Below, piece by piece: positions 3,001 through 54,500 of a DNA stretch of 64,000 nt; the stretch's first letter is position 1, and each line of letters opens with the position of its first letter. Source of the stretch: Hormiphora californensis. Its lineage: Eukaryota > Animalia > Ctenophora. The stretch spans positions 4,712,001-4,776,000 of the forward strand of contig CM035352.1 in the NCBI GenBank assembly GCA_020137815.1, read 5' to 3'. A program made the position numbers and the translations under genes. The notes beneath the pieces are model-generated. The model saw nothing but the letters and a program-made list of their open reading frames with translations. It was not told the origin of the DNA and searched no databases.

Positions 3001-6000
3001 ATGAAGACGTAAGTGGAACTGGAAGAGGAGGTGCGAGTAGTGAAGATGTAAGTGGAGGCGTGAGTGATGAAGATGTAAGCGGAACTGGAAGAGGAGGTGT
3101 GAGTGGTGAAGATGTAAGAGGAACTGGAAGTGGTGGTGCATCGAGGCCTGATTGTGAGCTGACTCAGTTTGAAGAGATCTCGCAGAAAGATCTTGTTCGG
3201 ATTGTAAAGCAGATGTCATCTAAGTCGTGTGAGCTAGATCCAGTTCCAACGTGGCTGGTGAAGGATTGTCTAGAGGAGTTGGCGCCTGCTTTAACGACTA
3301 TTATTAACAAGTCATTATGTAGAGCTTCAGTACCTGAGCCCCTGCAAAAAGCAGTAGTCATGCCAACGATAAAGGATCCGAATGGAGACAGAGATCTTCT
3401 TGCCAACTACCGCCCTGTCTCAAACATTGCTTTTGTCTCAAAAGTCTTGGAAAAGGTGGTATTGTGTCAAATGAATGACTATCTACTGAAGAATGACTTG
3501 TTGAACGCCAACCAGTCGGGTTACCGAACTGGTCATAGTTGTGAAACTCTTCTGGCTGGAATGTTTGATGACTTGCTGAAAGAACTGGATTCTGGAAAGG
3601 TAGCAGCACTCATGCTGTTGGACATGAGCGCGGCTTTCGATACAGTAGATCATGAGAAGCTGATGGAAGTGCTCGAGGTGAGGTTTGGAGTGAAGGGAAG
3701 TGCGCTTGGGTGGTTTAAGAGTTATCTGAGTTCCAGGAGTTACAGAGTAAGCGTCCATGGTGAGCTCTCTGAGGTTATTGCTCTCATCTGTGGAGTACCA
3801 CAGGGGTCATTGTTAGGTCCTGTATTATTCCTGTTGTACATAGAGGAGCTACAGGATATTGCTAGACCGTATGGTCTAATGATAAAGCTGTATGCAGATG
3901 ATTCCCAGTTATATGTGGGACTTGTCCCAACGGATAGTGAGGGATGGACAGCGACTAAGACCAGTATTGAGGAGTGTCTCGCTTCTATTAAGAACTGGAT
4001 GGTACAGCATTGGTTCAAATGTAACGAGAGTAAGACTGAGTTTGTTCTTCTGGGAAAATCAAGTTCTCTTGAGAAGCTGGTATTTGATCCGGAAATTAGG
4101 TTTGGTGACGCTGTGTTGCAGCCCATGGAATGTAGAGGAAGGACAGGGAAGACTCTAGGAATACTTCTGGATGAGCATCTTACCCTGGAGAGGCAGGTGA
4201 ACAATGTTAAGAAACAATGTGGACTGCAACTCAAGAACCTATGGCAACTCAATAAGTGTTTGGACAATAGTACACGGATTCTTCTGGTGAAGCAATTAGT
4301 CATATCAAAGATAGACTACTGCAATATCCTCTACTGTGGACTCCCAAAACGGATTCTAAACAATCTTCAAAAGGTTCTAAACTCCTGCGTACGGTTCATC
4401 TATAACCTACGAGGACATCAGGATAGCTATGATGAGTATTTCAAGGAAGCTCATATCCTCCCAATACAGCAGAGACTAACGTTCAAGGCCTGCCTGTTAG
4501 CGTACAAAATTGTGCGTGGAACAGCTCCAGAGTATTTGCTGGAACTGGTCCCTAGGGATGATGATATTCTGGGTATGAGACCAACGAGGGCGAATTCAGT
4601 GATTGACTTCTATAAGCTGAAATATCCTAAACTCTCGAGTGTTAACGCAAACTCTAAACTGAGGAGAAGGAGGATTTCGGTGTTTCTACCGACGGTATGG
4701 AACTCTTTACCTCTAGACCTGAGATCTGTTCACCCCATTGAGTTGTTCAAATCTAGGCTGAAGACCAGACTTTTCCTTGAAGCGTTCCCTTCTACCCCTG
4801 AAGACTCCCGGTGTGGCGTCTGAGTTGTTCACCGTGTTCCCCATCTGTCAGTAGGCGGTCTTTAGGCGTGCTCACCATTTACACTTAGGGCTTTTTTATC
4901 AGTATTGTTGAGCTGCTGATAAGTAGTGTGTGGGCTGTTGGCTTTGTTCCCTTTATTTAATAAAGTCTGTAATTTTTTTCATCTATACAGTTTTAAGCGT
5001 TATGTGGCCAGTTATCTAATTAGTATATCTTGAACTAGGAGTTTTTTCCAAAGTGTGTGAGAATATAAGGACCTTTTCGCGTGAGGTATACCGCTCTGAA
5101 GCTCGTCAGTGTCAGTTACAGTTTTACTTATCTGGCCCTGTCGTGTCTGTGGCGGTATACAAAACTTAATATTATTATTATTATTAGTGAATCTATCGGT
5201 TACATTATAAAGTATCTCTGTTTTATCATCTTTTTCAAATCATTACATCCTTCACTTTCCAGGTTACTATCCTGTTCGCTGATCTCCATGCGTATTTAGA
5301 CAATATGAAGGCACCCTGGGCCCTGCTGGAACTTAGGGCTCAATACTACGAGGCCATTATCAAGGTGATTATTGAAACTATTGGCTAACAGATTATTTCG
5401 GTTGGAAGTTTTCTCACAGTTACTTTCGCATCGTGTGTGATGCTACAAATTGTAACATTGTAACTTACAATCATGCAGTATGACAAGTTGGAAGATATTT
5501 CTACCAGTTTTCACCAACAACAATACCCCTCTCTCAGTCCATGTTGAAGTCGCTGGGTGTGCCACTTGAGAAGTTAAAGTTTGTCAAGGGGACATCCTAC
5601 CAGTTGTCACGGGAGTACACCCTTGATGTCTACAAGCTGTCATCCCTTGTCACGGACCATGACGCAAGGAAGGCAGGGGCTGAAGTTGTGAAACAGGTTG
5701 CCCATCCCCTTCTCTCTGGGCTTCTATACCCGGGGCTGCAGGTGAGTAGAGGGAAGTAGTTCTCCAGCCTGAGATGAGAACATCTCACAAGAACCATATT
5801 TCATGGTTAACCACCCTTGTGTACGGTGTGTCTCTTCTGGCGTGTTATTAGAATCAATAGATATAAGGAAAGAGGGAGACCCTTTTAGTTTTAGCCAATG
5901 TACTTGTTTCTCTTGGAATTTAATTTCCCATTCCCAGGCATTGTACTTGTTTCTCTTGAATTTAATTTCCCAGGCATTGGACGAAGAATATCTGGGTGTG

Positions 6001-9000
6001 GATGCCCAGTTTGGGGGTGTTGACCAGCGTAAGATCTTTATGTTCGCTGAGAAGTACCTGCCTGCCCTGGGTTACAAGAAGAGGGCACACTTAATGAATC
6101 CCATGATACCAGGATTAACTGGAGATAAGATGAGCAGTAGCGAACCGGTAATAGTGGAAAACATTAATTATATTTTCATGTTCATCTTCTGAAATAAAAT
6201 TCCTTCATGAATTCCCTAACAAATTTGTATCCCCCCTCTTCCAGGACAGTAAGATAGATCTGATTGATGGTCCGGGTGTTGTCAAAAAGAAGATCAATAA
6301 GGCTTTCTGTGAACCAGGCAATGTCACTAATAACGGCCTCCTCAGTTTTTCTGAATCTGTTATCTTCCCCTTCCTTGGAGACAAGGGTGAGTTGAAAGAG
6401 GGTTGGGGTTCAAAATATAAAACAATCTGCAGCTAACTTCCCATGTTGGCATGTTTCCATGAATACAAATCTCACATTTCCACACGTCCAATTCATTGTC
6501 ACTCAAATGACTAAATCCCGCAGCGTTTGAAATCAAGAGGAAGCCAGAGCATGGTGGCGATGTATCCTTCACCAACTTCCAAGATTTGAAGGATTCCTTT
6601 GCCAAGGAGAGTATCTATCCCCTTGATCTGAAGATGGCCGTTACCACCTACATTAACCAGGTACACATGTGCTGCTCGAATTCTCGTATGATAAATGTGA
6701 GTTGTTCTGTCTGGTGGTTCCGGTCCCATTTCGATTCTCGACAGTGTGCTCAAATCGAGTCGGCAGAGTTGTTGGGAATAAGGCAACCAGTTCCATGCTT
6801 ATATTCCTACTAACACGTCCACCCTATCATTTAGCATGGTAGAAATGGAAGTGGACTCTCCTAACACCACTACAACAAGCCCAAACTCAGATGCCAAGAA
6901 GCGGAAATCTGGCAAACAGCCAGCTGGGGGGAAACCGGGTGGAAAGTTCTACTGTACGAGTTGTAATGTGTATTGTCCTAATGAGGCTACCCTGGAACAG
7001 CACAATCAGGGCAAGAAACACCAGATGACAGTGACGTCACGACACAAACGGGACAAGCACACGGAGGCGAGCGTGTTTGTTGGTAATCTACCAAAACTAA
7101 ACAAGATCACCGCTGTGATATCAGAGCCGGGTGGGGAGAACGAAAAGCTGAAATGTGATCTCATTACCCTTTTTAGTGAGTTTGGTGACGTTCAAAAGGT
7201 CATTATTGACAAGGTTCACGGGTCTTATTGTATCCTGGAGTTCAAATCACCCACCTCCGCTCAGAAGGCCATAATGGCTCAACAGCAGGGACGGTTGCCG
7301 CCTTTCTACGGGAAAAAGTTACAGGTTAAAAGTCGAAATGCCAACACTAAGAAAGCTCCTCTGCGGGCACCCTGTTCTGAGCTAGCCGTGGGTAATGTCA
7401 TCGAGCTACTGAGAGAAGAGAGAGAGGAACCTGTGACAGCTCTCAACATGCTAGATGCAGCTATAAAGTTACCTGATAACACGGCTCGTGTTCAGAAGGA
7501 AGCTCTCCTAGCTCTCCAGGGTCATATTAACAAAGCCTTCCCATTCCATGCTGTTTCCATGGAGCTCTTTGGGTCTACTGTAACGGGTTTGGCACTAAAG
7601 GACAGCGATATGGATATCACGCTATCTGCCCGGACACGGCTGGAGAGGGACGATCTGGTTAAGGTCCTAAAAGAGAGGTGTCCGGGTGTCAGTCATGTCC
7701 ACTTGGTACCAGCACCCGGTCAATCAACCATCCTCCGATTCAAACTGGATACCTACTCGTGTGATTTAGTGTTCGCCAACAAGTTGGGTATACGAAACTC
7801 CGCTCTCATCTCAACCATCACCAAATGGGATCTAAAGCTGGCCAGACTCCTCCGATTGATAACGTTTTGGAATAAGACAGTCCTTGGTAAGAGGTTTGCT
7901 AGAAGACCTAGCTCCTACGCGGTGACAGTCATGACTCTCGCATACCTGAGATCATGTAGTCACATTCCTGATTTCTTCAATCCAGCTCACTTCACCGAGG
8001 AGACCCGGATTTATGACTTGGATTGTTCGTTTGTAACGGAGCCACCCCTAAATGTGTTCCTTCCTACCAAGGTCTCTGTTCCAGAGTTGCTAGCCGGGTT
8101 TTGGAGGTACTACGGGCATGATTTTAACCGTGATGACTGTGTTGTGTCAATGAAGGGGCAACTCAAGAAATCTGACTTAGTGGAGGGGGAGGAGAGGAGT
8201 GATTGTAGTTATGTCACAGTATTTAGGAGGTCACCCCTCGAGGTCCAGGACCCTCTTGTTCCGACCCACAACCTGACCCACAACGTTCCCTTGGAGTGTG
8301 CGGTGATGTTTGGAGACTACTGTAGGGAGGCGTGGGATAACTGGGGAAAGAAGAGGCCCCTTTATTTGTGGATGTTTGGGAGACAGAAAAAGGAAGAGGT
8401 TGAGGAAGTGGAGGAAGAGGAGGAGGGATCCAAGACTCCTGAGTATACAGAATCGGGCAAGAGGAAGAGAAGCCTCGAAGCGATGGAACATTAAGGCCAG
8501 AGGGGGGGGGCCGGACTCTGTGGGTCAAAATGTTCACTTTTTATATCTTGTCAAGCTCTTCGGTTCGGATGAGAACACTAACTGATTCTCATCTGTTTGT
8601 GGAAGAGAATTGTGAACAACATGTGTTATGAACATGGATGTGATGATGGCTGTACTATGTACCCTATTATTTGTAATTCATTTTTATGCAAATTTAACGT
8701 TTTTAATCTTTCAACAGCTGTTAGTGCCTTTGTGTCTAAAAGTATGATTCGCTATATCTGCCTCTTTAACATTCCCCTTCCTTTCAGTTGTTAGCGCCAA
8801 TCATCCAAGAGTTCAATAGTAAGGAACTGAAGAAACTGACATCCCAGGCATATCCACCAGAAGGTATATAGGGCTAGATGAGGTCTGTCTAGCGGCACCG
8901 ACCCAGTTGTTGGCAGTGCGATCAGATCGGGTCGTTGGGATAAGGTCGGGTTTGGGGAGACAAAGAAAATGACCCTTTTTGACACCCGTTTGTTTACAGG

Positions 9001-10588
9001 AAAGGCTGGCAAGGGTGGACCGGCGGCAGCAGAACGGGAAATTGACTTATCTAGAGTTGATATTCGAGTGGGGAAGATCGTTGAAATTGGACCTGTAAGT
9101 TCATTCCCAATTTACTCCTGTTTAAAATTATTCCCCCTTTGATTCACAAAACATAATACCCTTGATCTACCGAACCCTTACAGAGCGCTCGTCATTTTAT
9201 AAAATAAAATGCAGTGTGAGCCACACAATAACATCCTGCTGGTGTGCGGACTCTAGTGCTACACTCTAAGTCTACAGTGGACTCTATATCTAAATTTAGA
9301 TTTAGATAAAGAGTCCAAATAAGTCTAAACTCTAGGAGGACTCTTTATCTAAAAAGTCTACACAGGGCGGACTCTTTATCTAAAAAGTCTAAACAAAGTG
9401 GACTCTATATCTACATAAATCTAAATTAGATATAGAGTCCGCCTTTCGCCGCGAACTCGAGATTTCGGCCGTTAGGCCGGAAACGAGAGTTTGCTCTACC
9501 CCTATACTAATTTAGAAGTGTTAGGGCCGTTATTTGGGTTCGAGGTTAGGGTTAGGGTTAGTGTTAGGGTTAGGTTTTGGGTTGGGTTAGGATTTTAGAC
9601 ATAGAGTCCGGGTTGGAGGATTTGGCGCCAAAATGTACTAGAGGACTCTATATCTAAAAATTCTACACAGGGCGGACTCTTTATCTAAAAAGTCTACACA
9701 GGGAGGACTCTTTATCTAAACTTTTTTCAAAATCTAACTGTAGATAAAGAGTCCGTTTTTAGATATAGAGTCCGCCTTGGATTTAGATAAAGAGTCCGTT
9801 AGCACTAGAGTCCGCCCACCCATCCTGCTACCCCGACCAGCACCCAGACGCGGACTCCCTCTACGTGGAGAAGATCGATGTTGGGGAGGAGTCACCCCGG
9901 ACGGTTATTAGTGGACTCCGTCACTTCGTTCCCGAGGATCAACTGCGGGATGCCCTTGTGGCTGTTGTGTGCAACCTCAAACCTGCCAACATGAGAGGGA
10001 TCAAGAGTCACGGTAAGAGAGTGGAATCAGGAACCGACCGAATCAGGAAATACTGGTCCCTGATTGGCTGATAACCAGTCACGTGACCTTAATAACGTGT
10101 TCTGATTGGTTGTTTACTTGTTTCTGTCGGTTCCTGAGTGGAACTATATCGATACTGTTTTAGGGCCCTGGAGTGCCACCGTTCAGTGTTCACCATAGCA
10201 AACTCTCTCTAGAAACTTCCTCAATATACGATACTGTCCTATTTGAACTTGCTGAGTCATCAAATTAGAGCAGGGGCCACCTTTGAACATCCAAACTAAC
10301 TTCTGTCCCTCTCTCCAAGGTATGCTGCTGTGTGCCTCGGATAAGGACCACAAAACTGTCGAAGTTCTGAGAGTTCCGGAGGGTTGCAAACCTGGTGAAA
10401 GGATTACAGGAGAATCCTTCTCAGAAGCCCCCGATGCCCAACTAAATCCAAAAAAGAAGATTTTTGAGAAAGTTCAGGTGGACCTAACGACTGATGACTC
10501 ATTACAAGTTACATATAAGGGAGAGCTCCTAATGACCTCGACGGGTCCAATCACTGCTCCCTCACTCAAGAGTGCCGTTATTCGGTGA
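1..10588 (+). CDS. YARS1: Cytosolic tyrosyl-tRNA synthetase with C-terminal EMAP II-like domain; 5' end outside the window. Exons approx. <1-46, 5263-5364, 5538-5741, 5974-6147, 6245-6386, 6524-6660, 8788-8863, 9000-9094, 9841-10012, 10320-10588
   Basis: Spliced translation [15 protein letters not shown]|[29 protein letters not shown]...LYPGLQ|ALDEEY...FGGVDQRK...KMSSS...DIRVGKI...[16 protein letters not shown]...[21 protein letters not shown] is collinear with human YARS1; GT-AG sites with consistent phases. Confidence 0.96.
373..1665 (+). CDS. LINE ORF1, gag-like nucleic-acid-binding protein with three CCHC-type zinc knuckles
   Basis: 430 aa; CFHCQEFGH...[18 protein letters not shown]...H...CP. 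Confidence 0.9.
   Translation: MNSMTMRIDDVEITSKDEFDRALKALTYNRCSGEHVLDRLRVGGDAPLFNKDNAWELLCAAYSLIPDNPRVRFDSGVSSVLDTSLGASVADVLKESFESLKMELLAVVEQKVEDKVSELHGRKEVVVEDEGPVAPVRRYVDIRLDSSDAEGTTPVCPKTQWAEVVKPQVEKALKGVPVLNAVVNKGSVRLSFQNEDQLKEANNVLPPALGQEVQMVTETKSLLDPRISIGDLAQDLLDKETLILELTSGKNEEIKKLVDQGGKVKVVHMNPTGRFAVLQVTPEIRNVIAQKGDKVFLKLRQYWIRDRYHVVQCFHCQEFGHVAGSIRCTKKDGDAVCAFCAGDHETRSCGHKKRNDTGKLNCVNCQKSNSREDRRHSRSHLASSTLCPFYINERTKLMEKTSGVKKEAKNGYRTRAMEELKRRRLGGLGH
1680..4823 (+). CDS. LINE ORF2, apurinic-type endonuclease + reverse transcriptase (frame open from 1560, overlapping ORF1)
   Basis: APE motifs QET, YRPP, GDFN, SDH; RT motifs [27 protein letters not shown]; L2/CR1-type C-terminus IDYCN...GLP. 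Confidence 0.95.
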   Translation: MNKTAGVLTHLEDKACDVCLVQETYLKLTDTAKLQEIKENGWNIYSSPRNERSGGGIGVLYRDGVVVKLAPVKYKFKTFQVQEVLVGGEDDLVRLCNIYRPPYTGKARFTEANFLDEFNDYLSDLLMKTGSPLIMGDFNFQVQDSSNFYAKKLLDLLDSFDFVQNVPLKPTHVRGGTLDLIICQRGMSSKLGNLKIFPDGTMSDHYLVMMEVKLASEGRYVSRERMSVYHDFKAVDVEVFRNGLRDMCLEIPDDVTPEQALYLYDRALKEAVDRFVPTKRRKSVKNFRPWRERQDVRDTLRERRKAERAWEKNKTGLTKARYRELQRQFERIDKEARMEYVKKKLEDVKDDPAGLQKMLARLLGKKETLLPGGLSDKKLADNFAQFFSGKIDKIRSTVLEEQEAGAGCKGNGEGRGCEDVSGTGGVSGGDVSGTGSGGVRDEDVSGTGRGGASSEDVSGGVSDEDVSGTGRGGVSGEDVRGTGSGGASRPDCELTQFEEISQKDLVRIVKQMSSKSCELDPVPTWLVKDCLEELAPALTTIINKSLCRASVPEPLQKAVVMPTIKDPNGDRDLLANYRPVSNIAFVSKVLEKVVLCQMNDYLLKNDLLNANQSGYRTGHSCETLLAGMFDDLLKELDSGKVAALMLLDMSAAFDTVDHEKLMEVLEVRFGVKGSALGWFKSYLSSRSYRVSVHGELSEVIALICGVPQGSLLGPVLFLLYIEELQDIARPYGLMIKLYADDSQLYVGLVPTDSEGWTATKTSIEECLASIKNWMVQHWFKCNESKTEFVLLGKSSSLEKLVFDPEIRFGDAVLQPMECRGRTGKTLGILLDEHLTLERQVNNVKKQCGLQLKNLWQLNKCLDNSTRILLVKQLVISKIDYCNILYCGLPKRILNNLQKVLNSCVRFIYNLRGHQDSYDEYFKEAHILPIQQRLTFKACLLAYKIVRGTAPEYLLELVPRDDDILGMRPTRANSVIDFYKLKYPKLSSVNANSKLRRRRISVFLPTVWNSLPLDLRSVHPIELFKSRLKTRLFLEAFPSTPEDSRCGV
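6836..8494 (+). CDS. TUT1: Terminal uridylyltransferase 1 / Star-PAP-like; intronless, nested in TyrRS intron 6661-8787
   Basis: 552 aa; U1/matrin-type zinc finger (CTSCNVYC...H...KKH), RRM (VFVGNLP), nucleotidyltransferase motif FGS...DSDMD, PAP-associated VQDP...HNL. Confidence 0.85.
   Translation: MVEMEVDSPNTTTTSPNSDAKKRKSGKQPAGGKPGGKFYCTSCNVYCPNEATLEQHNQGKKHQMTVTSRHKRDKHTEASVFVGNLPKLNKITAVISEPGGENEKLKCDLITLFSEFGDVQKVIIDKVHGSYCILEFKSPTSAQKAIMAQQQGRLPPFYGKKLQVKSRNANTKKAPLRAPCSELAVGNVIELLREEREEPVTALNMLDAAIKLPDNTARVQKEALLALQGHINKAFPFHAVSMELFGSTVTGLALKDSDMDITLSARTRLERDDLVKVLKERCPGVSHVHLVPAPGQSTILRFKLDTYSCDLVFANKLGIRNSALISTITKWDLKLARLLRLITFWNKTVLGKRFARRPSSYAVTVMTLAYLRSCSHIPDFFNPAHFTEETRIYDLDCSFVTEPPLNVFLPTKVSVPELLAGFWRYYGHDFNRDDCVVSMKGQLKKSDLVEGEERSDCSYVTVFRRSPLEVQDPLVPTHNLTHNVPLECAVMFGDYCREAWDNWGKKRPLYLWMFGRQKKEEVEEVEEEEEGSKTPEYTESGKRKRSLEAMEH
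9241..9820. mobile_element. MITE with 9-bp TSD (Mutator-like)
   Basis: TIRs GGTGTGCGGACTCTAGTGCT / AGCACTAGAGTCCGCCCACC; CATCCTGCT duplicated at 9232-9240 and 9821-9829; internal GGACTCTTTATCTAAA subrepeats in both orientations; TTAGGG-like tract at ~9544-9590. Confidence 0.85.
10028..10136 (-). mobile_element. ~110-bp MITE (CAGGAACCGAC termini) with 8-bp TSD, hAT-like
   Basis: TIRs CAGGAACCGAC / GTCGGTTCCTG; flanks AGTGGAAT / AGTGGAAC; second copy in opposite orientation at 31617-31725. Confidence 0.85.
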
Positions 10589-11026: not shown

Positions 11027-22156
<11,130 letters not shown>

Positions 22157-22372: not shown

Positions 22373-23615
<1,243 letters not shown>

Positions 23616-28292: not shown

Positions 28293-28362
<70 letters not shown>

Positions 28363-28382
28363 CGTCTGTCTCTCTCTCACTC

Positions 28383-28440
<58 letters not shown>

Positions 28441-31400: not shown

Positions 31401-34400
31401 TTAACAAAAATTCAAAAAACTACAGTTTGTATAAAATACTACCTGTCTTTCACAGGTAACCACGAGGTCCGAAGTATACAGGCAATGTTCACCTTTAAAG
31501 CGGAGTGTATGTCCAAGTTTGGACAGACCATGGGAATGAGGGTGTGGGAGGCAGTTAACAAGTGTTTTGATGTTCTTCCCCTTGCTGCCGTCATTGATGA
31601 CAAGGTATGTATTGGTCAGGAACCGACCGAAACAAGTAAACAACCAATCAGAACTCTGTATTTAGGTCACGTGACTGGTTATCAGCCAATCAGGGACCAG
31701 TATTTCCTGATTCGGTCGGTTCCTGGGTAGTATAGGTACTGCTAGAACCAGGAAATAATCTTTTTTAGGAATTGCAGTATAAATATGCACTGCCCTGTTT
31801 AATGCCACACTGCTTGTTGTTATGCAACATGTCAACACGTACCTAACTCTTGCCTTAGTCGACCCTATCTTTTTGTGTGCCTTTACAAATATAAAGGAGG
31901 GTTAGAACATAGCAACACCATGTCCAATCTCTCCCAGATATTTTGTGTTCACCATCCAATCTCCCCCAGATATTTTGTGTTCACCATCCAATCTCCCCCA
32001 GATATTTTGTGTTCACCATCCAATCTCCCCCAGATATTCTGTGTTCACCATCCAATCTCCCCCAGATATTCTGTGTTCACCATCCAATCTCCCCCAGATA
32101 TTTTGTGTTCACCATCCAATCTCCCCCAGATATTCTGTGTTCACCATCCAATCTCCCCCAGATATTCTGTGTTCACCACCCAATCTCCCCCAGATATTTT
32201 GTGTTCACCACCCAATCTCCCCCAGATATTTTGTGTTCACCATGTCCAATCTCCCCCAGATATTCTGTGTTCACCATCCAATCTCCCCCAGATATTCTGT
32301 GTTCACCATCCAATCTCTCCCAGATATTCTGTGTTCACCATCCAATCTCCCCCAGATATTCTGTGTTCACCATCCAATCTCCCCCAGATATTCTGTGTTC
32401 ACCATCCAATCTCCCCCAGATATTTTGTGTTCACCATCCAATCTCCCCCAGATATTCTGTGTTCACCATCCAATCTCCCCCAGATATTTTGTGTTCACCA
32501 TCCAATCTCCCCCAGATATTCTGTGTTCACCATCCAATCTCTCCCAGATATTCTGTGTTCACCATCCAATCTCCCCCAGATATTCTGTGTTCACCATCCA
32601 ATCTCTCCCAGATATTCTGTGTTCACCATCCAATCTCCCCCAGATATTCTGTGTTCACCATCCAATCTCCCCCAGATATTTTGTGTTCACCATCCAATCT
32701 CCCCCAGATATTCTGTGTTCACCATCCAATCTCCCCCAGATATTCTGTGTTCACCATCCATTCTCCCCCAGATATTCTGTGTTCACCATCCAATCTCCCC
32801 CAGATATTCTGTGTTCACCATCCAATCTCCCCCAGATATTCTGTGTTCACCATCCAATCTCCCCCAGATATTCTGTGTTCACCATCCAATCTCCCCCAGA
32901 TATTCTGTGTTCACCACCCAATCTCCCCCAGATATTCTGTGTTCACCATCCAATCTCCCCCAGATATTCTGTGTTCACCATCCAATCTCCCCCAGATATT
33001 CTGTGTTCACCATCCAATCTCCCCCAGATATTCTGTGTTCACCATCCAATCTCCCCCAGATATTCTGTGTTCACCATCCAATCTCCCCCAAATATTCTGT
33101 GTTCACCATCCAATCTCCCCCAGATATTCTGTGTTCACCATCCAATCTCTCCCAAATATTCTGTGTTCACCATCCAATCTCCCCCAGATATTCTGTGTTC
33201 ACCATCCAATCTCCCCCAGATATTCTGTGTTCACCATCCAATCTCCCCCAAATATTCTGTGTTCACCATCCAATCTCCCCCAGATATTCTGTGTTCACCA
33301 TCCAATCTCCCCCAGATATTCTGTGTTCACCATCCAATCTCCCCCAGATATTCTGTGTTCACCATCCAATCTCCCCCAGATATTTTGTGTTCACCATCCA
33401 ATCTCCCCCAAATATTCTGTGTTCACCATCCAATCTCCCCCAGATATTCTGTGTTCACCATCCAATCTCCCCCAGATATTGTGTGTTCACCATCCAATCT
33501 CCCCCAGATATTCTGTGTTCACCATCCAATCTCCCCCAGATATTCTGTGTTCACCATCCAATCTCCCCCAAATATTCTGTGTTCACCACCCAATCTCCCC
33601 CAGATATTCTGTGTTCACCATCCAATCTCTCCCAAATATTCTGTGTTCACCATCCAATCTCCCCCAGATATTCTGTGTTCACCATCCAATCTCCCCCAGA
33701 TATTCTGTGTTCACCATCCAATCTCCCCCAGATATTCTGTGTTCACCATCCAATCTCCCCCAGATATTCTGTGTTCACCATCCAATCTCCCCCAGATATT
33801 CTGTGTTCACCATCCAATCTCCCCCAGATATTCTGTGTTCACCATCCAATCTCCCCCAGATATTCTGTGTTCACCATCCAATCTCCCCCAGATATTTTGT
33901 GTTCACCATCCAATCTCCCCCAGATATTCTGTGTTCACCATCCAATCTCCCCCAAATATTCTGTGTTCACCATCCAATCTCCCCCAGATATTCTGTGTTC
34001 ACCATCCAATCTCCCCCAGATATTCTGTGTTCACCATCCAATCTCCCCCAAATATTCTGTGTTCACCATCCAATCTCCCCCAGATATTCTGTGTTCACCA
34101 TCCAATCTCCCCCAGATATTCTGTGTTCACCATCCAATCTCTCCCAGATATTCTGTGTTCACCATCCAATCTCTCCCAGATATTCTGTGTTCACCATCCA
34201 ATCTCCCCCAGATATTATGTGTTCACCATTCAATCTCCCCCAGATATTCTGTGTTCACCATCCAATCTCCCCCAGATATTCTGTGTTCACCATCCAATCT
34301 CCCCCAGATATTCTGTGTTCACCATCCAATCTCCCCCAGATATTCTGTGTTCACCATCCAATCTCCCCCAGATATTCTGTGTTCACCATCCAATCTCCCC

Positions 34401-36624
34401 CAGATATTTTGTCTTCACCATCCAATCTCCCCCAGATATTCTGTGTTCACCATCCAATCTCCCCCAGATATTCTGTGTTCACCATCCAATCTCTCCCAGA
34501 TATTTTGTGTTCACCATCCAATCTCCCCCAGATATTCTGTGTTCACCATCCAATCTCCCCCAGATATTCTGTGTTCACCATCCAATCTCTCCCAGATATT
34601 TTGTGTTCACCATCCAATCTCCCCCAAATATTTTGTGTTCACCATCCAATCTCCCCCAGATATTCTGTGTTCACCATCCAATCTCCCCCAGATATTCTGT
34701 GTTCACCATCCAATCTCCCCCAGATATTTTGTGTTCACCATCCAATCTCCCCCAGATATTCTGTGTTCACCATCCAATCTCTCCCAAATATTCTGTGTTC
34801 ACCATCCAATCTCCCCCAGATATTCTGTGTTCACCATCCAATCTCCCCCAGATATTCTGTGTTCACCATGTCCAATCTCCCCCAGATATTTTGTGTTCAC
34901 CATCCAATCTCCCCCAGATATTCTGTGTTCACCATCCAATCTCTCCCAGATATTCTGTGTTCACCATCCAATCTCCCCCAGATATTCTGTGTTCACCATC
35001 CAATCTCCCCCAGATATTATGTGTTCACCATCCAATCTCCCCCAGATATTCTGTGTTCACCATCCAATCTCCCCCAGATATTCTGTGTTCACCATCCAAT
35101 CTCCCCCAGATATTCTGTGTTCACCATCCAATCTCCCCCAGATATCTTGTGTTCACCATCCAATCTCTCCCAGATATTCTGTGTTCACCATCCAATCTCC
35201 CCCAGATATTCTGTGTTCACCATCCAATCTCCCCCAGATATTTTGTGTTCACCATCCAATCTCCCCCAGATATTTTGTGTACATGGGGGCATCCCATCTC
35301 CTGAGAACGGTGGCGGGTATCTGAGTGTATTTGAGGATATTCCTCACGACCTACCGGACCCTGAGAAAGAGTGCAGACTGGCATGGGAAGTTATGTGGTC
35401 AGATCCACTCAGGTAATAATGGACATATTAGACAGTGATCTGTTGTAAAATACCGGGTATATCACAAAATACACGGGAAATACACCCTCCCCCCGATTTC
35501 TAAACAACTCAACCTCTCCAGGGAAGACGAGCTAGACACGACAACGAAAGAGACGGTTAAGGATTCGGGCGGGTTTATAGCCAACCACCGCCGAGGAACA
35601 GCCTACCTGTTTTCCAGGGAGGCCCTGGAGAGTTTTCTAAAGAGGAAACAAACTCAGTCATGTGATTCGGGCTCATGAGGTTAAACAAGCCGGATTTCAG
35701 GTAAATTCACGTGATAACCAATTTAATAACTCCGTAGTGTGATAGACGATGTATATTTTTTGGCGCCAACTAGATCTGTGTGTACTGTCACCAATCCAAT
35801 TTGATAATCAAAACAAGGGCGGTGCCGCCAGACAGGATCTGTCAGTGTTAGAACATTGGTCTAACAGGACAAGATTGGGGGGGGGGGGGGGGGGGGTCCA
35901 GCCCTAAAAAAAGCTTAAGGTACCCTGATTTTGGTCGATAGCGTTTTTTATTTTAGCTTTTTTTAGCTTTTTTTAGCTTTTTTAGCCCTACTTTTTATGT
36001 TTTTTCAGCATTCATCTTGACACTTTTCCATTAAATTTTCATCCTTCCGGACGTCTATTGACTGCTTTTGTTCATTTCCTGCACATTTTTTACCATAATC
36101 TACCGTTTATGTCCATACATAGCAATTTCTGTATCCACCCCTACTGCCATTTTCTGGAGACATTTTTTCGATAAAAATATTATTCAAATTTGATAAAAAT
36201 AGTTTTAAAAAAGTTCAAAAAACGTTATAAAACGTTATAATAAAAGTTTAAAAAATTTGGCGTCAGCGGGATTCGAACCTATATGAATCCACTAAAAACT
36301 CAATTTTAGCTTTTTTTAGCTTTTTTAGCCTAAAAAAAGCTAAAAAAGCTAAATAAAGCTAAAAAAAGCTAAAAAAGCTAAAAAAAACTAAAAAAGCTAA
36401 AGGTACCCTGATTTTGGCCGTTAGTTTAGCTTTTTTTAGGGCTGAACCCCCCCCCCAAGATTGCTCCTAAATAACACCCACATATAATATATTCCCAGGT
36501 GCAACAGAACGGTAAACTGCTGACTGTCTTCTCCAGCTCGGGCTACTGTGGGGGGACAAACCAGGCGGCGTGCGTGCTGGCAGATCGGAACAAGATCAGG
36601 ACGATTAGGATCGACACTTCATAA
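25694..36624 (+). CDS. Multi-exon Ser/Thr protein phosphatase (PPP family) with N-terminal Nudix-like domain and EF-hands
   Basis: Nudix-like [25 protein letters not shown]|DAGI; EF-hands [15 protein letters not shown] and [14 protein letters not shown]; PPP motifs [37 protein letters not shown]. The exon phases I checked from the Nudix to the EF-hand exons are compatible; one +1 frameshift near 35648. Confidence 0.85.
31617..31725 (+). mobile_element. Second copy of the ~110-bp CAGGAACCGAC MITE
   Basis: Near reverse complement of 10028-10136. Confidence 0.85.
31918..35283 (+). repeat. Minisatellite, ~105 copies of a 32-bp unit CCATCCAATCTCCCCCAG|ATATTCTGTGTTCA spanning a 3' splice site
   Basis: Exon-start position after the first AG is 31938 and after the last AG is 35270: 3332 bp = 104 x 32 + two units longer by 2 bp. 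Confidence 0.97.
35878..36455. mobile_element. MITE with G/C-run termini
   Basis: TIRs (G)n-TCCAGCCCTAAAAAAAGCT / AGCTTTTTTTAGGGCTGAA-(C)n; CAAGATTG on both flanks; internal AGCTAAAAA repeats. Confidence 0.75.
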
Positions 36625-37628: not shown

Positions 37629-44829
<7,201 letters not shown>

Positions 44830-46254
44830 GATGGAGGACCCTAAATAACGGGAAGATAAACAGCATTATTGGGGCGTTATGTATAGAGTGGTACAGAATA
44901 TACAGAGTGTTGACATAAAAAGGTGCTTCAAGAAAACAAGAACACAGCAGTGGAATCACCATTCCAAGTCATTGAATAGCGTAAAACAATTAACAATCGG
45001 TATTTATTAAGTGAGTGCTTGGTCCATGCACCATCAAAACTATGATATCTCACAATTCACACATTCCCACCCTCACACACACACATGTCTCACCCTCTCT
45101 CACACACATGTCTCACCCTCTCACACTCACCTGTCCGTAGGAACCGTGGTAGACTCGTGACAAACATCTATATGATATATTGAAGGCTCAGTGACTGGTA
45201 TATTGGCTGCAAAATTTCAAACTTTAAGCGAACAAGCTGGTGCGTTTTTCCGTCATTCAAAAAGGTTAATTTGAGTTTCTTCTTGTAAAAAGTAAATTAC
45301 GATTGGCTAGGCGATTGCAGGTTCTACACTGGAAATCTGCTAGCTTACATGCAATATAATTGCGGGACCTGGAATTAGCTCTGTCTACGTTTACACATAC
45401 TCAATACTCATCAAACAGAACGCCCTACCAGGTTGTCTAGCATACATCTTTGGAGGAGTCAACGGCAAAGCAAAGTTGTAAGTTATAAAGTGACCTGGTT
45501 GTGGTTGTTGAAAGTACAGCCGACTCTGGAGATTTTCATCCAACGCGACTTTTTTGTTCTGAATTGAATCACGCGCGCACGGTTTTATCACATTGCGCGC
45601 CACGTTCGTATTTTTTGCGCGTTTATTGCGCGGCTCAACTTTCATTTATTTATTTATTAAAAAAATTCAAAATTTTAAAAACTCAAATTTTTGCAGCTCG
45701 CGACGTCACTTTTGTCTTTCCACACCCCAACACCGGGGGCAAATGATCGAACCCAATGTGAATGAGACTCATCGCGATTAACTCTTCATACGGTTACCCC
45801 CTTTCTCTCTTCGGCAGCTTCTCTTCGGCTGTTGGAAAGTGATGCCAATCGGTGTTGGGGTTAGTGAATTTGTCTTTCCACCAACCCCAACGGTTGAAAA
45901 GCGCTGCCTTATCCCGTGCGGGGGCCAGCAGCGTTTGCCAACCCCAACGGCCAACACCGGGGGAAATGATCAAACCCAATAGGAATGAGAAAAAAAACTT
46001 TTGTCTTTTCCGACACTTTGTTTGGAATTTTAATTTTTTGAGCTTTTCCGTTTTCAGGTTTCCAATTAGAGTACTTTTTTTCAACTGTTCCCCCAAAAAC
46101 TGAAATTTAATGAAATTCAGAATTTTTGTGGCAGGCGCTACACGTTAACATGTGATAAACGCGCAAAAAAATTCCGCGTACGACTTTGGGGGGTGAACAG
46201 TTGAAAAAAATGGAGTATATTAACATTACAACTGTTTGTTTAGGACCCTGCTGT

Positions 46255-49200
46255 ATGGCCGAAGACATCATCCCATCCTCGTTACCCTGTATCAGGTCGC
46301 AGATTCTAAACTTCATCAGTTCTCAGACATCCAAACCGGCAACTGAGGATGCTATTCCCCTTTTCTCCAGGGATTCACAGCCCCCTCCTCCAGCTCGTTC
46401 GACTGATTTCTCGAGAGCTCCGCAACTTGCACCTTCTCAAGCTACAGCAGCGGTAGCACCAACCAGGGACTTCTCCAATCGTCTCAAAATCAAACCAACT
46501 TTTGGCAGACCTGCGATCTCAGATCAGCAATCAATGGATCGGTTTGTTCAACGTAATGAAACTACCACCAAACCCAGCATTTCGGAAAACTACGATCGAA
46601 TAAATCAGGATCCAAACTTTGATTACCGTCCTGTTTCAGAAGTACCTGTGAAATACCGCCAGATCTTCTCCAAATATCCATATTTCAACAAGGTACAATC
46701 AAAGGTTCTCGACAGTGTCCTATTTTCAGACGCCCCACTTGTTCTCTCTGCACCGACAGGTTCCGGGAAAACGGTAGTCTTTGAACTTGCTATTGTCCGT
46801 CTACTGCAGCAAACTGAACCCTCAATGATATCTAAGATTAAAATCGTCTACATGGCCCCATTAAAGGCACTGTGCTGTGAAAGACTAAATGATTGGCGGT
46901 CAAAGTTCACACCTTTCAATCTCAATTGTATTGAAGTTACTGGCGACACCGATATAGACGACTACTCGGTGATGAGAAAGTCTAATATCATTTTCACAAC
47001 GCCTGAAAAGTGGGACAGTGTAACAAGAAAGTGGAAGGAACACACGGGAGAGGTACGGCATATCTCACTGTTCCTCATTGATGAAGTACACATGGTGGGA
47101 GATGGTGAGAGGGGCTCCACGATTGAGGCTGTCATCAGCAGAATGAAATGTATTAAAGATTCCACCGGCTCACAGCTCCGGTTTGTTGCTGTTTCTGCTA
47201 CAATTCCAAACGCAGAAGATTTCTCTGATTGGTTCAGTACTGCCCAAGAAAAGTCCGTTTGTTACAACCTAAATGAAAGTTACCGTCCTGTTCCATTGAA
47301 AAAGGTTGTTCTCTCCTACCCTGATTGCCAACCAAACACTGCCTACAAATTCGATCTGAACCTCAACTACAAACTTCCATCTGTGATTGAACAGTACAGT
47401 CCCAGGTCACCCACCATTATATTCTGCTCCACAAGGAAAGGGACCAACCAGGCTGCAACGACCCTTCAACAACAGAAACGCTTTATTTTCAGTGAGACCG
47501 AGCGAGCGTTTATCCGGGAGACAATCAGTAGTGTCGTAGATTCGAAGCTAAGAGAACTTTTAGGGTGTGGTATTGGCTATCACCATGCAGGATTAACGCA
47601 GTCTGACCGACAAACAATCGAAAAACTCTTCCTATCAGGTCACCTTCCTGTGATTTGTGCAACTAGTACCTTAGCCATGGGAGTCAATCTACCAGCTCAC
47701 CTTGTGATCATCAAGTCCACATTGCAGTATGCAGCGGGGAAATTCCGGGAATACTCCCCTGCAGACGTCCTGCAGATGATTGGTAGAGCGGGTCGGCCCC
47801 AGTTTGATTCCTCTGCCGTGGCGGTTATCATGACCCAGAACAGGACAAAACAACTCTACACAAACTTGATCAGTGGAAGCCAGATAGTGGAGAGCACATT
47901 TCACAAGAATCTAACCGATCACCTGAACTCGGAGATTGTGCTGAAGACGCTGACACATGTTACAAGCGCCGCCAAGTGGATGGAATCCCTGTTTCTATTT
48001 GTCAGGATCAGCAAGAATCCAAATCTCTATGGTCTCCCCGGGAACGTGACTCCCGATCAAATAAAACGCTTTCTTGAGGAGAATGTGCATGGAGGGAATT
48101 CGGAGTTTGAAAGAGTTTCGGTCTGATAAGTCTTGCCCCGGACGGCTCGATCACTCCTACAGATGCTGGATCTCTAATGGCTCGATACTGTATCGCCTTC
48201 CGAACGATGAAGATGTTTTGTGAGCTGAAGGGAGACGAGGGGATGAAGAATGTTCTGGAGGTGATTTCCGCTGCCCAGGAGTTCTCTGACGTGCAACTGC
48301 GAGTACAAGAAAAAAGCACGCTAAACCTTCTAAACAAGAACAAAAACGGACCCGTTATACGGTATCCATATAAGGAGAAAATAAAGACCAGCGCCATGAA
48401 AATCAGTGTCCTGCTCCAGGCAGTGCTGGGCTGTCTCACCATCACCGATTTTTCACTCAATCAAGAATCTTTGAGGATTGTCCAGGTTGCAGCTCGTCTA
48501 GCAAAGTGCCTGTTCGAGCTTCAATCGGCCCATTCCTCGAATTTTCAGTGCTACATATCCTCTCTACTCCTTATGAAATGCTTCAATTGTCGGCTTTGGG
48601 AAAACACCAAGTTCGTGGTTAGGCAATTCAAAAACATTGGCCCAACAATCGGAGGATTTCTGGTAAATGCCGGTATTGTATCTCTGACAAAACTCCTATC
48701 AACGAACCCCCGAGAGCTAGAGATGATCTGTAACAAAAACCCGCCTTTTGGAAGTCACTTGGTTTCAGAAGCCAGTGTAGTGCCACAATATGAGCTGTTC
48801 GTAAAACAGGTGGGAGATATTGAGACGGCCAGAGCCAGTTTGCAAGTGTTTGTCCAGGCCAAGATTCCAGCTGACCGGGCAAGTGAGATTCACCCGGCAT
48901 CTACATCATCCCTTATCATAGGAACACCTGAGAATACACTGGTTTACAAACGAAAACTCAAAGATCGATTGCTTGCGGAGGATCAGACATTCCAATGTGA
49001 GCTGAACATTTACAGAGTTGTCCAGGAACAGGCCGTGATATTTTGGTTGGTTAGTCACTCTAGGGTTGGTTGCGATATAAAAAGCACATTTTGTCCCAAG
49101 TTCCTCCCAGATATCTCGTTTCCGGATAAGATCACCAAACCTTCAGTCGCTCCTGTTGCACCAGCCGTGCCGTACAAGCGGAACCCGTATGTTGTAAGAA

Positions 49201-51176
49201 ATCATACAGAAAACATGGACAACAAACTGAAAGACAGTTCACGGATCTTGTCCGCCAAGCCCCGGAGCATGAATGAAACCCTCCAGCAGATAATACAACC
49301 CACCCCTGCCGGAGACGAGGAGAGTGACTTTGAGGATGTCAGTAGCTGGAAGATTCAGGAGATTATCGAACCGACTAAGAGGTCAGGACAGGCTCCCAAG
49401 ATGGGGATAATGTCCCAGACAATCAACCGACCTACGAACGAGCAGCTAGAACCTGGAAATCTTTGTCATGGTAACAGGAGTGTTTCGTCTTTTAGCGTCC
49501 AAGGTGCTACTTCTCATCAACATGATGCCCAAGATAAACCGCCTTATGATGCCTCTGTTGTTCATCACATGCCTCGTGTCTCCCAGCCTTACGAATCTCA
49601 TCATGGCAACGGTGGACAACAGAACGGTAGAAACAATGGGATCAACAATGTTGGAAGTTTCAACACTGCTCCTTATCAAAACAGTGCGAACCCTTATCAG
49701 TCGTACCAAACCAATTCAGTCCCTCCAGAACCGTATCAGAACAGTTCAAATCCTCCTCAGCGGTATCAGAACAGTACAAAACCGTACCAAAATAACTTGA
49801 GCACCATTCAAAATAATTCAAATGCTGCTCAAAGCAGGGAGCTAGGGGAACACACATCAAACTTTAAGCAGCAAACCAGTAATTCCATACAAAACCCTGA
49901 GTTTGATCCTATCCACTGCCAACCAAACAGAAGACCGCAGCAGGTAGTTAAACCGATCCTAAAAACTCGAGGGGCGGTGGAGTCAGTGTATCCAGTGGAT
50001 GGGAGAAACGATGCAGAATGCAGTTTACACGACGAGAGTACCGATGAGAAGGAGCTGGAGAAGATGCTGAAGGAGATGGAGGATTCGGGATATTTTGATG
50101 AAATTGAGAGTGGTGGAATGGGATCTGGAAGTGAAGGAATGGACTCCCCCAGTGGGCTGTCCGATAACTTTGATATGGGTGTTGCGGATCTTCTATCTTC
50201 GCAATCGTCAGTATCATCGGGAGAGTTTTCTCCCCTGCCACTCCAACAGCGGCTTGCAGATAAACAGTTACAGTTCCGATCACCTTACCAACAGCAACCA
50301 CCCTACCAGAAACAACAGCAACCAGTCTATCAGAAACATCAGCAACCACCCTACCAGAAACATCAGCAACCACCCTACCAGAAACAGCAGCAACCATCCT
50401 ACCAGAAACAGCAGGAACCATTCTACCAGAAACATCAGCAACCACCCTACCAGAAACAGCAGCAACCACCCTACCAGAAACAGCAGGAACCATCGATCAA
50501 AAGCAAACACGATGTGACTCAGCCACAAAACCAAGTCATGGGTCCAGCATCATGTGGAATGCCAGGAATCTCATTCAACTACTGCCCGGAACCGCCACAG
50601 GATGTGATGATCACAACAACTGGGAATAATAATGGATATCAATGTGGGAATATTGCCGACAATCGGTGGCACAATAATCAGGAATCAACCCATTCTTACT
50701 CCCATCAACAGCCATATCACCAAAATAACTCCCACTCCAACCCTGCCTGCTCTACTGCAGTTCCACCCGCCGCTGACCCTATTTCCCGGGTGATACGCCT
50801 CGACAAGGACGGTAATCAGTACCGGGAGTGTGGACACAAGTGTGCCGATAAGACCTCGTGTTCTCATTTTTGTTGTCGGTTTGGGGTGAAGGTGAAGGAG
50901 CCTAAGAAAAGGGCAGCAAAGAGTGTTAGTTGGGCAGAATCGCCCGATAAGGGAGACCAATCCGGACCACCCCCGTACGACAGTGCTTTCAACAAACGAA
51001 CTAAGTTTTTCAAGTCTAACAAGGAAAATGTCCCCCAAAACCAGTCAGTGTTAGATCGATACTGTGCCAAGCCTACTTCGCTGAGGGAAAAATTCCTTCA
51101 GTCGATCCGGAAAAGTCCGCCTAATCAAGATCGGGACTTTGAGGCAACTCAGGCACCGGCATTCCATGGGGTATAG
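46255..51176 (+). CDS. HFM1: Meiotic DNA helicase HFM1/MER3; intronless, two +1 frameshifts at ~48082 and ~48118 join the two ORFs
   Basis: APTGSGKT, TTPEKWD, DEVH, SAT, YHHAGL, TSTLAMGVNLPA, QMIGRAGRPQFD, Sec63-like region, C-terminal CGHKCADKTSCSHFCC zinc motif. Confidence 0.92.
50283..50492 (+). repeat. Coding 24-bp tandem repeat (QQQPPYQK) in HFM1
   Basis: About 8-9 copies of CAGCAACCACCCTACCAGAAACAK. Confidence 0.9.
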
Positions 51177-51522
51177 GAACAGAGGATGCCATGCAGGTTT
51201 CAGATATTTCCTCCATTTACGGTGGACAATAATAATCGAGTTTTTAAGTTGAGTTATTTGTTTTGTAAACTATATCATTCCGTTAATTTTCGTAAAGTTG
51301 TTAATGTAAATTTGATTTTGTAAGTTGTACACAATTTACCGCGTCATTTCTTGTTTCTCACCCAGTCGCAACCAATTATCTCCCTTGCCATGACTCCCTC
51401 TATTTCCCTAGTACCTGTTGGCCGTTATCCACCTGCTTCCCCCAACCCATTCCCATCTCAGTACCTGTTTCCATCCCTCTATTCACATTTCACCATCCCA
51501 TTTCCCTCTCTTTCTAGCAACG

Positions 51523-54500
51523 ATGGATTTTGAAACGGATAGTGTGATAACAGATCTCAGCGTTCTGGATACTCCTATGCCCTACAGGAGACTCCCTGAA
51601 GAGAAGTCCGGCAGTACCACCGACCTAACTTACTCTAGCAGTGATGGTAAGTCGTCCACAGACCTTACTTACTATAGCAGCGATGGTAAGTCATACCACC
51701 GACCTAACTTACTCTAGCAGCGATGGTAAGTCATACCACCGACCTGTTACGCGACCCTGAAATCTGAATCCTCACTCAGTTTGGTTCGTGTAGCTGGTTT
51801 GCTTACTATTTTATAATGTTTATTTTGGCACAATGCCATTACCAGCGGCAGTTTGAATAAATGAATGGAATGAAATGATGCTGTCCGGTTCGGCAGTCTT
51901 TTGTGAGACAAGTTCAGTACGCCAGACGAGCATCAGATAACCCTTGTTGTCAACACTGCGTTTCCTTCTCTCCTATTCTAAAAGCAACTCTCGTGAGTGG
52001 CGGCTCCACTTATCTAGTGCTTCTTGTAGGGCTGAAAAATGCTCAGCCTACAAAACCATTTCACACAACCATTCAATAGAGAAAGAGAGAAGGTTAGAAT
52101 CACTTGGTGACTCGGAGGTTGCTTGACATATGTATATTATTCGGTTATTCATATTTAGTATTCAGAGGTATTTCATTGTTGAACTACATGTGATCTCATG
52201 TAGCGTGAGAGTATAGAGGTACGTGGCACGAGGACGTGTCTGATCTTCGTAGTAATAGTTTAGTGACAAAGAGGTTATTAGATCAGGGGAGGATGAACTC
52301 TTTCATCCATGAGATACTACTGTAGTCTAGACAGAGAACAATAGGTGAATAGAACAGGGAGCAGAGGCTGAGTTAATTCTCGTTAATTTACAGTGACAGG
52401 TGGGGCCAGTCTCGGTTAGTTGGGGAGGAGGAATAAAGTCCAGTACGAGTCAGTTCTGGACCGACCAGAATTACTTGCGTTTGATAGTTGAGCTCTGGGA
52501 AAGCTCTTCTTAGTTACTTTAGTTAGACGGAGGATAACGGCGGGGACGGAGGTTTATGGCGGTTGGTATAGAGGTATTGTATAGGTGGACGGCAGGTCAA
52601 GGTAAGAAGGTTTGCTTACGCATAGCTGACTCGATTGGAGTCAGCTTGTCTCGCTATGGGTCGAGTTGTGATGGACACAACTCCCCTACTATGCTCTCAG
52701 ATATGATAGGCCGTCTTGGTATAGACGGAGCCAGCTTTGTTCTGCTTGTCATACTTGCTGGAGGTTGATGAGTCCCAAAGTGATTTAGGAAGAGACGAGC
52801 CAATGAGATGAGAGACAAGTTATATTTCAGGGTATTTTATATTGATTTATTTATGAGCGGACGATGTTCTTTTACAGTGATTATTTGGGGCTGGATTTAT
52901 CCCGCACTTTGTACCCTGAACTGTTTGTTTCAGTTTGCTATTATGGGAACGGATATAAACTGGTCATTTCATTATAGCACTCAAACCCCACCCGCTAGGT
53001 AGGTTGGCTTAGGAGCATTATTGGCATGGGGGTATGTCAGCTCCGTAAGTGTGTGAGGTGCTTGTTGGAGCACTGGTAGTGTGTTCACATAGAAGGGTTT
53101 TTTACAGTCCGGCCCTGAGCTTCACGCACCTACATTTTGGTCCGACGAACCAGATAATTAATTGGCCAATTAAATTTTTATTTTTATTACCAGATTAATT
53201 AGGAGCTAATTAGGGTGGGAAGTTGTACATGGCAACTTACCTTTTGAGTATGATAGTTAGGGGATGGACTATCTAAATTTTGTGCTGTAACTAGAAGCCA
53301 TATAATGTAGTACATCAGCTGGTAGCAGATGTATTGGAACGAGTGTGAACTGTGAAACTCGTGTGACATTCAATTAGGGCCAGCAATCATGATAAAATTA
53401 CAGGCTATCACAGAGCCTAAATAGAGTCGGAGATTGAGGGAGGAGTGAGTAGACTGTCATATGTACGCGTTTCGTTTCCCGACCTTTGTAGGTTTGCCTG
53501 TATTTTGTTGAGCAATCACTAGCTTGTTTGAGGGTCAATATTCTCCCTAAATTGCGGCGGTAACAGGGATTGAACAGTTGTAAATAATCATGCTCCGAGC
53601 TTGTATTTAGTTTGCTGATATGATTGATATTTGGAGGTATTTATTCAAGGTGGTCATTTGTGAGGACGGGTACGGATCTCAGGTTGGCAAATGGCAGATA
53701 TAATTTAGGGGAAATATTATTATTAATAATAGGGTGGTAAATCATATAAATCACTATAATACTATTATTTGAGGTACAAGGAAAGGCGGCTAGAGGTTAA
53801 TATGTTTTGTATTTATACAACCACCAGCCTGTTGTATAATTTAGGGCGTACTCAGAATACAGTAGATTAAGGTATGTAGCTTGTTTTAGCAATTGGAAAA
53901 TATGCATAACCAAATTCAAATTTTTTGGTTATGTGCATGATAGGTTGGGTTAGTGGATTATATGGTGCGGAACGAGGGGGCACTTTCCGAACGAGATACA
54001 GGGGGAGTTTCATGTTTCAATAAACGAGGGGGAACACTGCATGAATCTTATAAATCATGTTAGGTTTAGAAGTGGTTACAGTAACCATTAGCTCCCACCA
54101 CACATTTGTTTTCTGTTTGCATCTGTCGAGGTTGAGTTACGTGCACCTAACCCTTCGCGTGAGGTAACAGGATATTTGGTTGAATCCTGAGAGACTAGGG
54201 TAAAGTCTAGAGTTGACATGCTCTATCCACTGGCATGGGAGTAGGATGTAAAAATTTGGACTGCTCAACAGCCGGGCTATTTACTGGCTAGTTAGATAAT
54301 GTTATATAAGGAATTTCACAGCGGGTAGGGGAGAACTTGCTTGGATCCTGTAAGGGGGAGAAACAGGTCAAATATTTTGGCTTAAAATTTGGCTGTTCTT
54401 GAGTTAGGACAAAGAGTCCACATGAACTGTGGAACCCTCTGTTGTATGTAGGTTTAGCTCTCTATGAATTATGCTATTAAGTTGAGCAGGGAATAAGCTA

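What the first reader, a model, noticed from the sequence alone, without database searches (positions are those of the whole stretch)
5899..51745. Synthesis: tandem repeats appear to be seeded at splice junctions
Seen: within 64 kb, four genes have tandem repeats whose unit contains their own splice site or its motif: TyrRS acceptor x2, phosphatase acceptor x~105, malic enzyme donor motif x>10, CEP57 donor x3. There is also a small donor-adjacent duplication at ~45080-45131, and donor-motif repeats occur inside both retroelements (2930-3135, 57560-57635). Inference: a mutational process tied to splicing (for example R-loops or polymerase pausing at junctions, or RNA-templated repair) amplifies exon-intron boundaries, and this spliceosome tolerates it by using the site closest to the exon body. 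This could generate new introns and alternative splice sites. I do not know of a description of this as a genome-wide system.
Basis: inference. Interest (0 to 1): 0.8.

Follow-up and report, generated by a model that had tools for sequence, protein, structure and literature searches.

The report
Splice-junction "mirage" repeats, five exon edges
In four genes of what is probably a comb jelly, five exon edges have been copied head to tail into the neighbouring intron (2 to about 105 times), a repeat type already known from lancelets and human genes, and likely a tolerated by-product of frequent local DNA duplication rather than a new splicing-driven system.

Summary
The repeats are real. Of 127 splice junctions tested, 5 have a tandem copy of themselves in the adjacent intron: TyrRS acceptor x2, phosphatase acceptor x105, malic enzyme donors x3 twice, CEP57 donor x3. 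The 105-copy unit is in DNA of two samples and of a related species, so it is no assembly artefact. One RNA contig uses the exon-proximal TyrRS acceptor. The two retroelement repeats do not belong: neither is at a junction, and the LINE one is an in-frame coding linker. Enrichment is borderline: 5 seen against 1.8-2.6 expected, P 0.02-0.12, in a window chosen for the pattern. The type is known: amphioxus 'mirages' (PMC3087553, PMC3902484) and human F7, CBS, LMNB2, PDGF minisatellites, where the exon-proximal site is mostly used (PMC1557585). Nothing supports R-loops or RNA templates. Most likely: ordinary duplication in short introns, filtered by selection. A real two-fold excess at exon edges stays open. 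The scan noted this before on other DNA of this genome and in brachiopod, urchin and annelid genomes (unchecked).

The parts
5899..5979 (+). TyrRS intron end + acceptor + 6 exon nt, two copies (AG at 5937 and 5973); live acceptor 5973
   Evidence: Pfam tRNA-synt_1b; RNA contig joins 5738 to 5971, equal to the 5973 acceptor
31923..35280 (+). PPP-family phosphatase acceptor array: 32-nt unit of 17-21 intron nt and 11-15 exon nt, 105 junction copies; live exon inferred to start at 35270
   Evidence: preceding exon aligns to PP1/calcineurin; unit present in runs X1, X5, X10
42599..42671 (-). malic enzyme donor 42669: 24-nt unit x3 starting 2 nt inside the exon
   Evidence: Pfam malic
41869..42598 (-). 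degenerate G-rich 21-nt repeat family continuing the donor array (11 further G|GTAGGT motifs)
45058..45135 (-). malic enzyme first annotated donor (45130): 23-nt unit x3; 4 exon nt match; copies have lost the donor
51615..51745 (+). CEP57 exon end + donor, 39-40 nt unit x3.3; donors at 51647 and 51686 in frame, 51726 out of frame
   Evidence: Pfam Cep57_CLD in downstream exons
   Evidence: one stop only, at 4821

Best explanation
These are 'mirage'-type minisatellites: short tandem duplications that straddle or abut a splice site, likely made by ordinary slippage or unequal exchange in a duplication-prone genome with short introns, and likely kept because splicing mostly picks the site nearest the exon, so the spare copies are cut out with the intron. 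Shown: five such repeats; median intron 167 nt; local duplications are also common in intron interiors, between genes and in transposons (1.2-2.3% of positions) but rare in coding exons (0.3-0.6%). Inferred: any two-copy seed can then expand like any minisatellite (105 copies in the phosphatase); a junction copy stays recognisable longer because one partner is held constant by selection, which would give a modest apparent excess without any mutational bias.
For: Background duplication rates by class. Expected junction hits from uniform placement are already 1.8-2.6 of the 5 seen; with a strict 5-nt margin 3 seen vs 1.29 expected, P 0.125. All spare copies lie on the intron side of the annotated site (0 of 127 exon-side hits). 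RNA uses the exon-proximal TyrRS acceptor (one contig). A later malic enzyme donor would meet a stop two codons in. Spare sites decay: 10 of 104 spare phosphatase acceptors have lost AG and the 4 kinds of rare exon-part variants are all non-synonymous. Same anatomy and same outcome in amphioxus and human genes. A related ctenophore has 13% tandem repeats and indel-rich introns (PMC8527503 passages).
Against: Some tests give P about 0.02 and, for units of 20 nt or more, 5 of 8 overlap a junction vs 1.39 expected, P 0.005 (post hoc). Spare copies differ from the live exon mostly silently (6 of 8 differences, P 0.002-0.03), more than plain decay predicts. 29 of 94 intact upstream phosphatase acceptors, the upstream TyrRS acceptor and CEP57 donor 2 are in frame without stops, so frame alone does not exclude their use.
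Confidence: 0.62

Rival explanations
1. Exon edges are true hotspots, but for a recombination reason: in a highly heterozygous species, exchange or repair between alleles starts in well-matched exons and slips where the introns stop matching, copying an edge from the other allele.
For: 6 of 8 copy-versus-exon differences are silent against 21.5% expected; excess among long units; samples differ heavily in introns; organism B has exon-start contigs with 2 and 3 differences, the number expected if it carries the array's codons (letters not shown). The idea was taken from earlier notes e1-10582703 and e1-10417509.
Against: Small numbers. Three of the six silent differences are in CEP57 and need no such model if donor 2 is used and both copies are coding. 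The phosphatase array is older than the split from organism B, so silent changes could have arisen later in the live exon.
Confidence: 0.22
2. One reading: splicing or transcription at junctions (R-loops, polymerase pausing, RNA-templated repair) causes the duplications.
For: Borderline excess; the two malic enzyme units are G-rich on the RNA strand (48-62% G) and start within 2-4 nt of the donor.
Against: Three of five units are G-poor (9-17% G); no spliced exon-exon joint in any array; duplications are as dense in transposons and between genes as in introns; retroelement repeats are not junctions; no paper found for it.
Confidence: 0.09
3. The spare sites are selected: decoys or alternative sites that tune splicing or give isoforms.
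For: In-frame, stop-free options exist for TyrRS (+12 aa), CEP57 (+13 aa) and the phosphatase; 94 of 104 spare acceptors keep AG; some human cases use second sites (PMC1557585 passages).
Against: Only RNA seen uses the proximal site; 45130 copies lost the donor; apparent array depth differs widely between organisms; inserts would fall inside catalytic domains.
Confidence: 0.05
4. Assembly artefact.
For: The assembly has single-base errors: all four runs lack one base at 35644-35646, and several genes show frameshifts. The four small repeats were not confirmed in reads.
Against: The phosphatase unit is at very high depth in two organism-A samples and present in organism B; copies of the small repeats differ from each other by substitutions and indels.
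Confidence: 0.02

Closest known systems
Amphioxus 'mirage' minisatellites (Adh3, globins BflGb6 and BflGb9, troponin C, PGBD5); PMC3087553 and PMC3902484, passages read
   Same: Tandem copies of an exon-intron boundary, at either 5' or 3' edges, units of tens of bases, many copies keeping AG/GT, no reported harm to splicing, proposed route to new introns, mechanism unclear.
   Different: Here a probable ctenophore; one array reaches 105 copies (6 and 3 in BflGb6 haplotypes); a within-window chance test was run; somatic instability not tested.
Human minisatellites whose first unit spans a donor (F7 intron 7 37 bp, CBS intron 13, LMNB2, PDGF intron 4, interferon-inducible 6-16); PMC1557585, passages read
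   Same: Authentic site followed by identical pseudo-sites; only or mainly the exon-proximal site is used.
   Different: Those are all donors and isolated cases; here 2 acceptors and 3 donors among 127 junctions (4%).
Intron gain by tandem genomic duplication (Rogers model); PMC3443670 passages read, PMC4974935 seen as listing only
   Same: Duplication of a splice-like sequence as raw material for new splice sites.
   Different: That model duplicates an exonic AGGT and creates an intron; here existing junctions are copied and no new intron is shown.

Membership tests
mirage minisatellites | Head-to-tail copies whose unit contains both exon and intron sequence of a real junction | tested here: met
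   Clear for TyrRS, phosphatase, CEP57 (6-32 exon nt); marginal for the two malic enzyme repeats (2 and 4 exon nt)
mirage minisatellites | Many copies retain the AG or GT signal | tested here: met
   94 of 104 spare phosphatase acceptors, 1 of 1 TyrRS, 2 of 2 CEP57; lost in the 45130 copies
mirage minisatellites | Normal mRNA is still made from the exon-proximal site | tested here: inconclusive
   One RNA contig for TyrRS from a sample of unknown allele; no RNA across the phosphatase acceptor; CEP57 ambiguous
mirage minisatellites | Length instability between alleles or individuals | tested here: inconclusive
   Unit depth is far above flank in X1 and X5 and only a few-fold in organism B, but contig depth is no copy number
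mirage minisatellites | Somatic instability (reported for amphioxus Adh3) | not testable with these tools
   Needs raw reads or small-pool PCR from one animal
intron gain by tandem genomic duplication | A new intron formed between duplicated AGGT sites | tested here: not met
   All five copy an existing junction; no new intron seen in annotation or RNA
RNA-templated insertion | Inserted unit carries a spliced exon-exon joint | tested here: not met
   None of 64 spliced 12-mers found in the five repeat regions; a pre-mRNA template would not be detected

The most novel reading that the evidence does not exclude
Exon edges are a real duplication hotspot in highly heterozygous marine invertebrates: exchange between alleles slips where matched exon meets unmatched intron, so a few percent or more of all junctions carry fossil copies of another allele's exon edge, a genome-wide supply of spare splice sites that has not been measured in print.
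Probability: 0.22. Interest if true: 0.65.

Novelty: new member of a known kind. Interest (0 to 1): 0.27.

Why it matters
As it stands it extends a little-known repeat class to a probable ctenophore and offers a natural test of splice-site choice: one live acceptor behind 94 intact copies. It also warns annotators and assemblers. If a genome-wide excess at exon edges is real, it would point to an undescribed mutational bias that feeds alternative splice sites and intron gain.

Tried and rejected
No whole genome is held, so the genome-wide test could not be run. A metagenome scan with the HFM1-like helicase gave 4 loci at 25-26% identity, unrelated. Homologue searches gave only unnamed proteins or none (CEP57 exon), so neither the taxon nor the CEP57 donor could be fixed from proteins; 'ctenophore' rests on gene layout resembling PMC8527503 and on unchecked earlier notes. 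The phosphatase exon after the array gave no Pfam or PDB hit alone. A first echo search missed TyrRS through a design flaw and was replaced. RNA run X7 has no contig over the phosphatase acceptor; that gap is no evidence. tables were flooded by transposon reads and showed no DNA row over the TyrRS duplication. The allele-origin test was inconclusive because letters near contig ends are not listed. Donor-adjacent repeat 18479-18519 and near-donor repeat 15786-15835 were checked and do not include the junction. Retroelement repeats rejected. Supplements of the papers were not opened; they could hold further cases.

Full report
Setting. I read the whole window and annotated by hand 64 GT-AG introns in seven genes: TyrRS, a DUF4550 (CFAP92-like) gene, a calcium-channel alpha2-delta-like gene (label recalled), a Nudix-like gene (label recalled), a PPP-family phosphatase, malic enzyme and CEP57 (Pfam and PDB support; one CEP57 acceptor corrected). 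Median intron length is 167 nt. RNA confirmed four TyrRS introns and one phosphatase intron. The organism is probably a ctenophore: this is inferred from nested genes and short introns like those in PMC8527503 (passages) and from unchecked earlier notes; no tool named it. The assembly has single-base errors: all four runs lack one base at 35644-35646.

Observation. An anchored search asked, for each junction, whether a copy covering it lies within 200 nt. Five of 127 junctions score 19-46 and the next scores 10: TyrRS acceptor 5973, phosphatase acceptor 35269, malic enzyme donors 42669 and 45130, CEP57 donor 51647. No junction has a copy on its exon side. Three are clear, with 6 to 32 exon bases copied; the two malic enzyme repeats include only 2 and 4 exon bases and could equally be called donor-abutting. 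The phosphatase array has 105 junction copies, 95 with AG and 10 with AA. Its unit is in DNA run X1 (contig depth 1723 against 25.7 beside it), X5 (7500-8833 against 371) and the related organism B (several contigs at 38-82 against 59). Depth is no copy number and one organism-A sample may be the assembly's source, but the array is real and older than the split from organism B. The four small repeats were not confirmed in reads.

The retroelement repeats do not belong. The 39-nt repeat at 2929-3139 sits in an open LINE ORF2 and its GTAAGT is Val-Ser codons. Both elements are 27% G on the + strand, with 28 and 34 GTRAG motifs, and neither repeat is near a junction.

Is it more than chance? Position test (every 7th base, microsatellites masked, first copies only): local duplications cover 1.5-2.1% of intron positions, 1.2-2.0% of intergenic, 1.6-2.3% of transposon and 0.3-0.6% of exon positions; at the intron rate 2.0-2.6 of 127 junctions are expected, P 0.05-0.12; this background includes the five events themselves. 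Event test on a collapsed window with hand-set transposon masks: 5 of 14 strong events against 1.82 expected, P 0.024; 5 of 22 with weak events against 2.47, P 0.088; within genes only P 0.019 and 0.093; not counting the 42669 repeat P 0.093. Requiring 5 bases each side: 3 against 1.29, P 0.125; units of 20 nt or more only, chosen after looking: 5 of 8 against 1.39, P 0.005. In-frame coding repeats and transposon-internal repeats were left out of the event list. The window was picked because it shows the pattern, so these P values are optimistic. Result: a 2-3 fold excess, neither established nor refuted.

Which site is used? One RNA contig (metatranscriptome X7, depth 13, allele unknown) joins TyrRS exons at the exon-proximal acceptor; the upstream AG would add 12 residues in frame. 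For malic enzyme a later donor meets a stop two codons in. For the phosphatase, the preceding exon aligns to PP1 residues 124-168, so the next exon should follow without an insert before the metal-binding His (recalled); 29 of 94 intact upstream acceptors are nevertheless in frame and stop-free, and no RNA covers the site.

Mechanism. Shown: duplications are common in all non-coding classes, rare in exons, and spare copies decay. Inferred: slippage or unequal exchange makes a two-copy seed; seeds inside exons are purged; seeds across a junction survive when the proximal site wins; some expand as minisatellites; one partner is held by selection, so junction copies stay visible longer. Against the splicing-linked model: no array holds a spliced exon-exon joint (0 of 64 tested) and three of five units are G-poor on the RNA strand. 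One result goes against plain decay: 6 of 8 differences between spare copies and live exon (counted by eye) are silent, against 21.5% expected (P 0.002; 0.027 if the live exon also drifts silently), while the 4 kinds of rare variants within the phosphatase array's exon part are all non-synonymous. This fits copying from another allele, an idea taken from earlier notes, but three of the six silent changes are in CEP57 and would be explained if both copies are coding.

Known relatives. PMC3087553 (passages) describes amphioxus 'mirages', tandem copies of exon-intron boundaries that do not disturb splicing, calls their origin unclear and proposes them as a route to intron gain. PMC3902484 (passage) adds PGBD5 and troponin C. 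PMC1557585 (passages) lists human F7, CBS, LMNB2, PDGF and 6-16 minisatellites with proximal-site use. PMC3443670, PMC2812944 and PMC10078293 (passages) cover duplication-driven intron gain and repeat effects on splicing. Searches for a ctenophore case and for a genome-wide enrichment or R-loop link found none in this library, which lacks most subscription papers. Earlier unchecked notes report the same pattern elsewhere in this genome and in brachiopod, urchin and annelid genomes; they are not evidence.

Verdict. Real, known in kind, new for the lineage as far as searched. Interest 0.27. The open point worth a genome-wide test is whether young duplications are truly biased to exon edges.

Noticed in passing
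window 10026-10137 and 31616-31725: Two copies (95% alike, opposite orientation) of a ~110-nt element sit 13 and 11 nt after a donor; the first is absent from contigs of X1 and X5, so it is a polymorphic insertion.
   Followed up: partly
window 6839-8494: Intronless TUT1/Star-PAP-like gene (zinc finger, RRM, nucleotidyltransferase) nested on the same strand inside a TyrRS intron.
   Followed up: partly
window 16846-21310: Seven-intron alpha2-delta-like gene nested antisense in a 4.8-kb intron of the DUF4550 gene; its last codons overlap the host's exon edge at about 21295-21310.
   Followed up: no
window 60-5190: Apparently full-length LINE with open ORF1 and ORF2, inserted sense in a TyrRS intron.
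   Followed up: partly
window 51997-60010: About 8-kb element with ~1.1-kb near-identical direct terminal repeats inside CEP57 intron 1, with no long ORF in the part that was shown; followed by a nested intronless 7TM receptor gene (60115-61030).
   Followed up: no
window 35644-35646; also malic enzyme, TTLL9-like, DUF4550 and HFM1-like genes: Single-base frameshifts in otherwise conserved genes; the phosphatase one is absent from all four runs, so they are likely assembly errors, not pseudogenes.
   Followed up: partly
window 22400-23615 (-) and 46255-51178 (+): Intronless TTLL9-like and HFM1-like genes; the latter has an in-frame 24-nt x8.4 Gln/Pro-rich repeat at 50292-50492.
   Followed up: no
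window 51615-51745: CEP57 copy 3 looks like a hybrid, its 5' part matching copy 1 and its 3' part matching copy 2, which suggests unequal exchange.
   Followed up: partly
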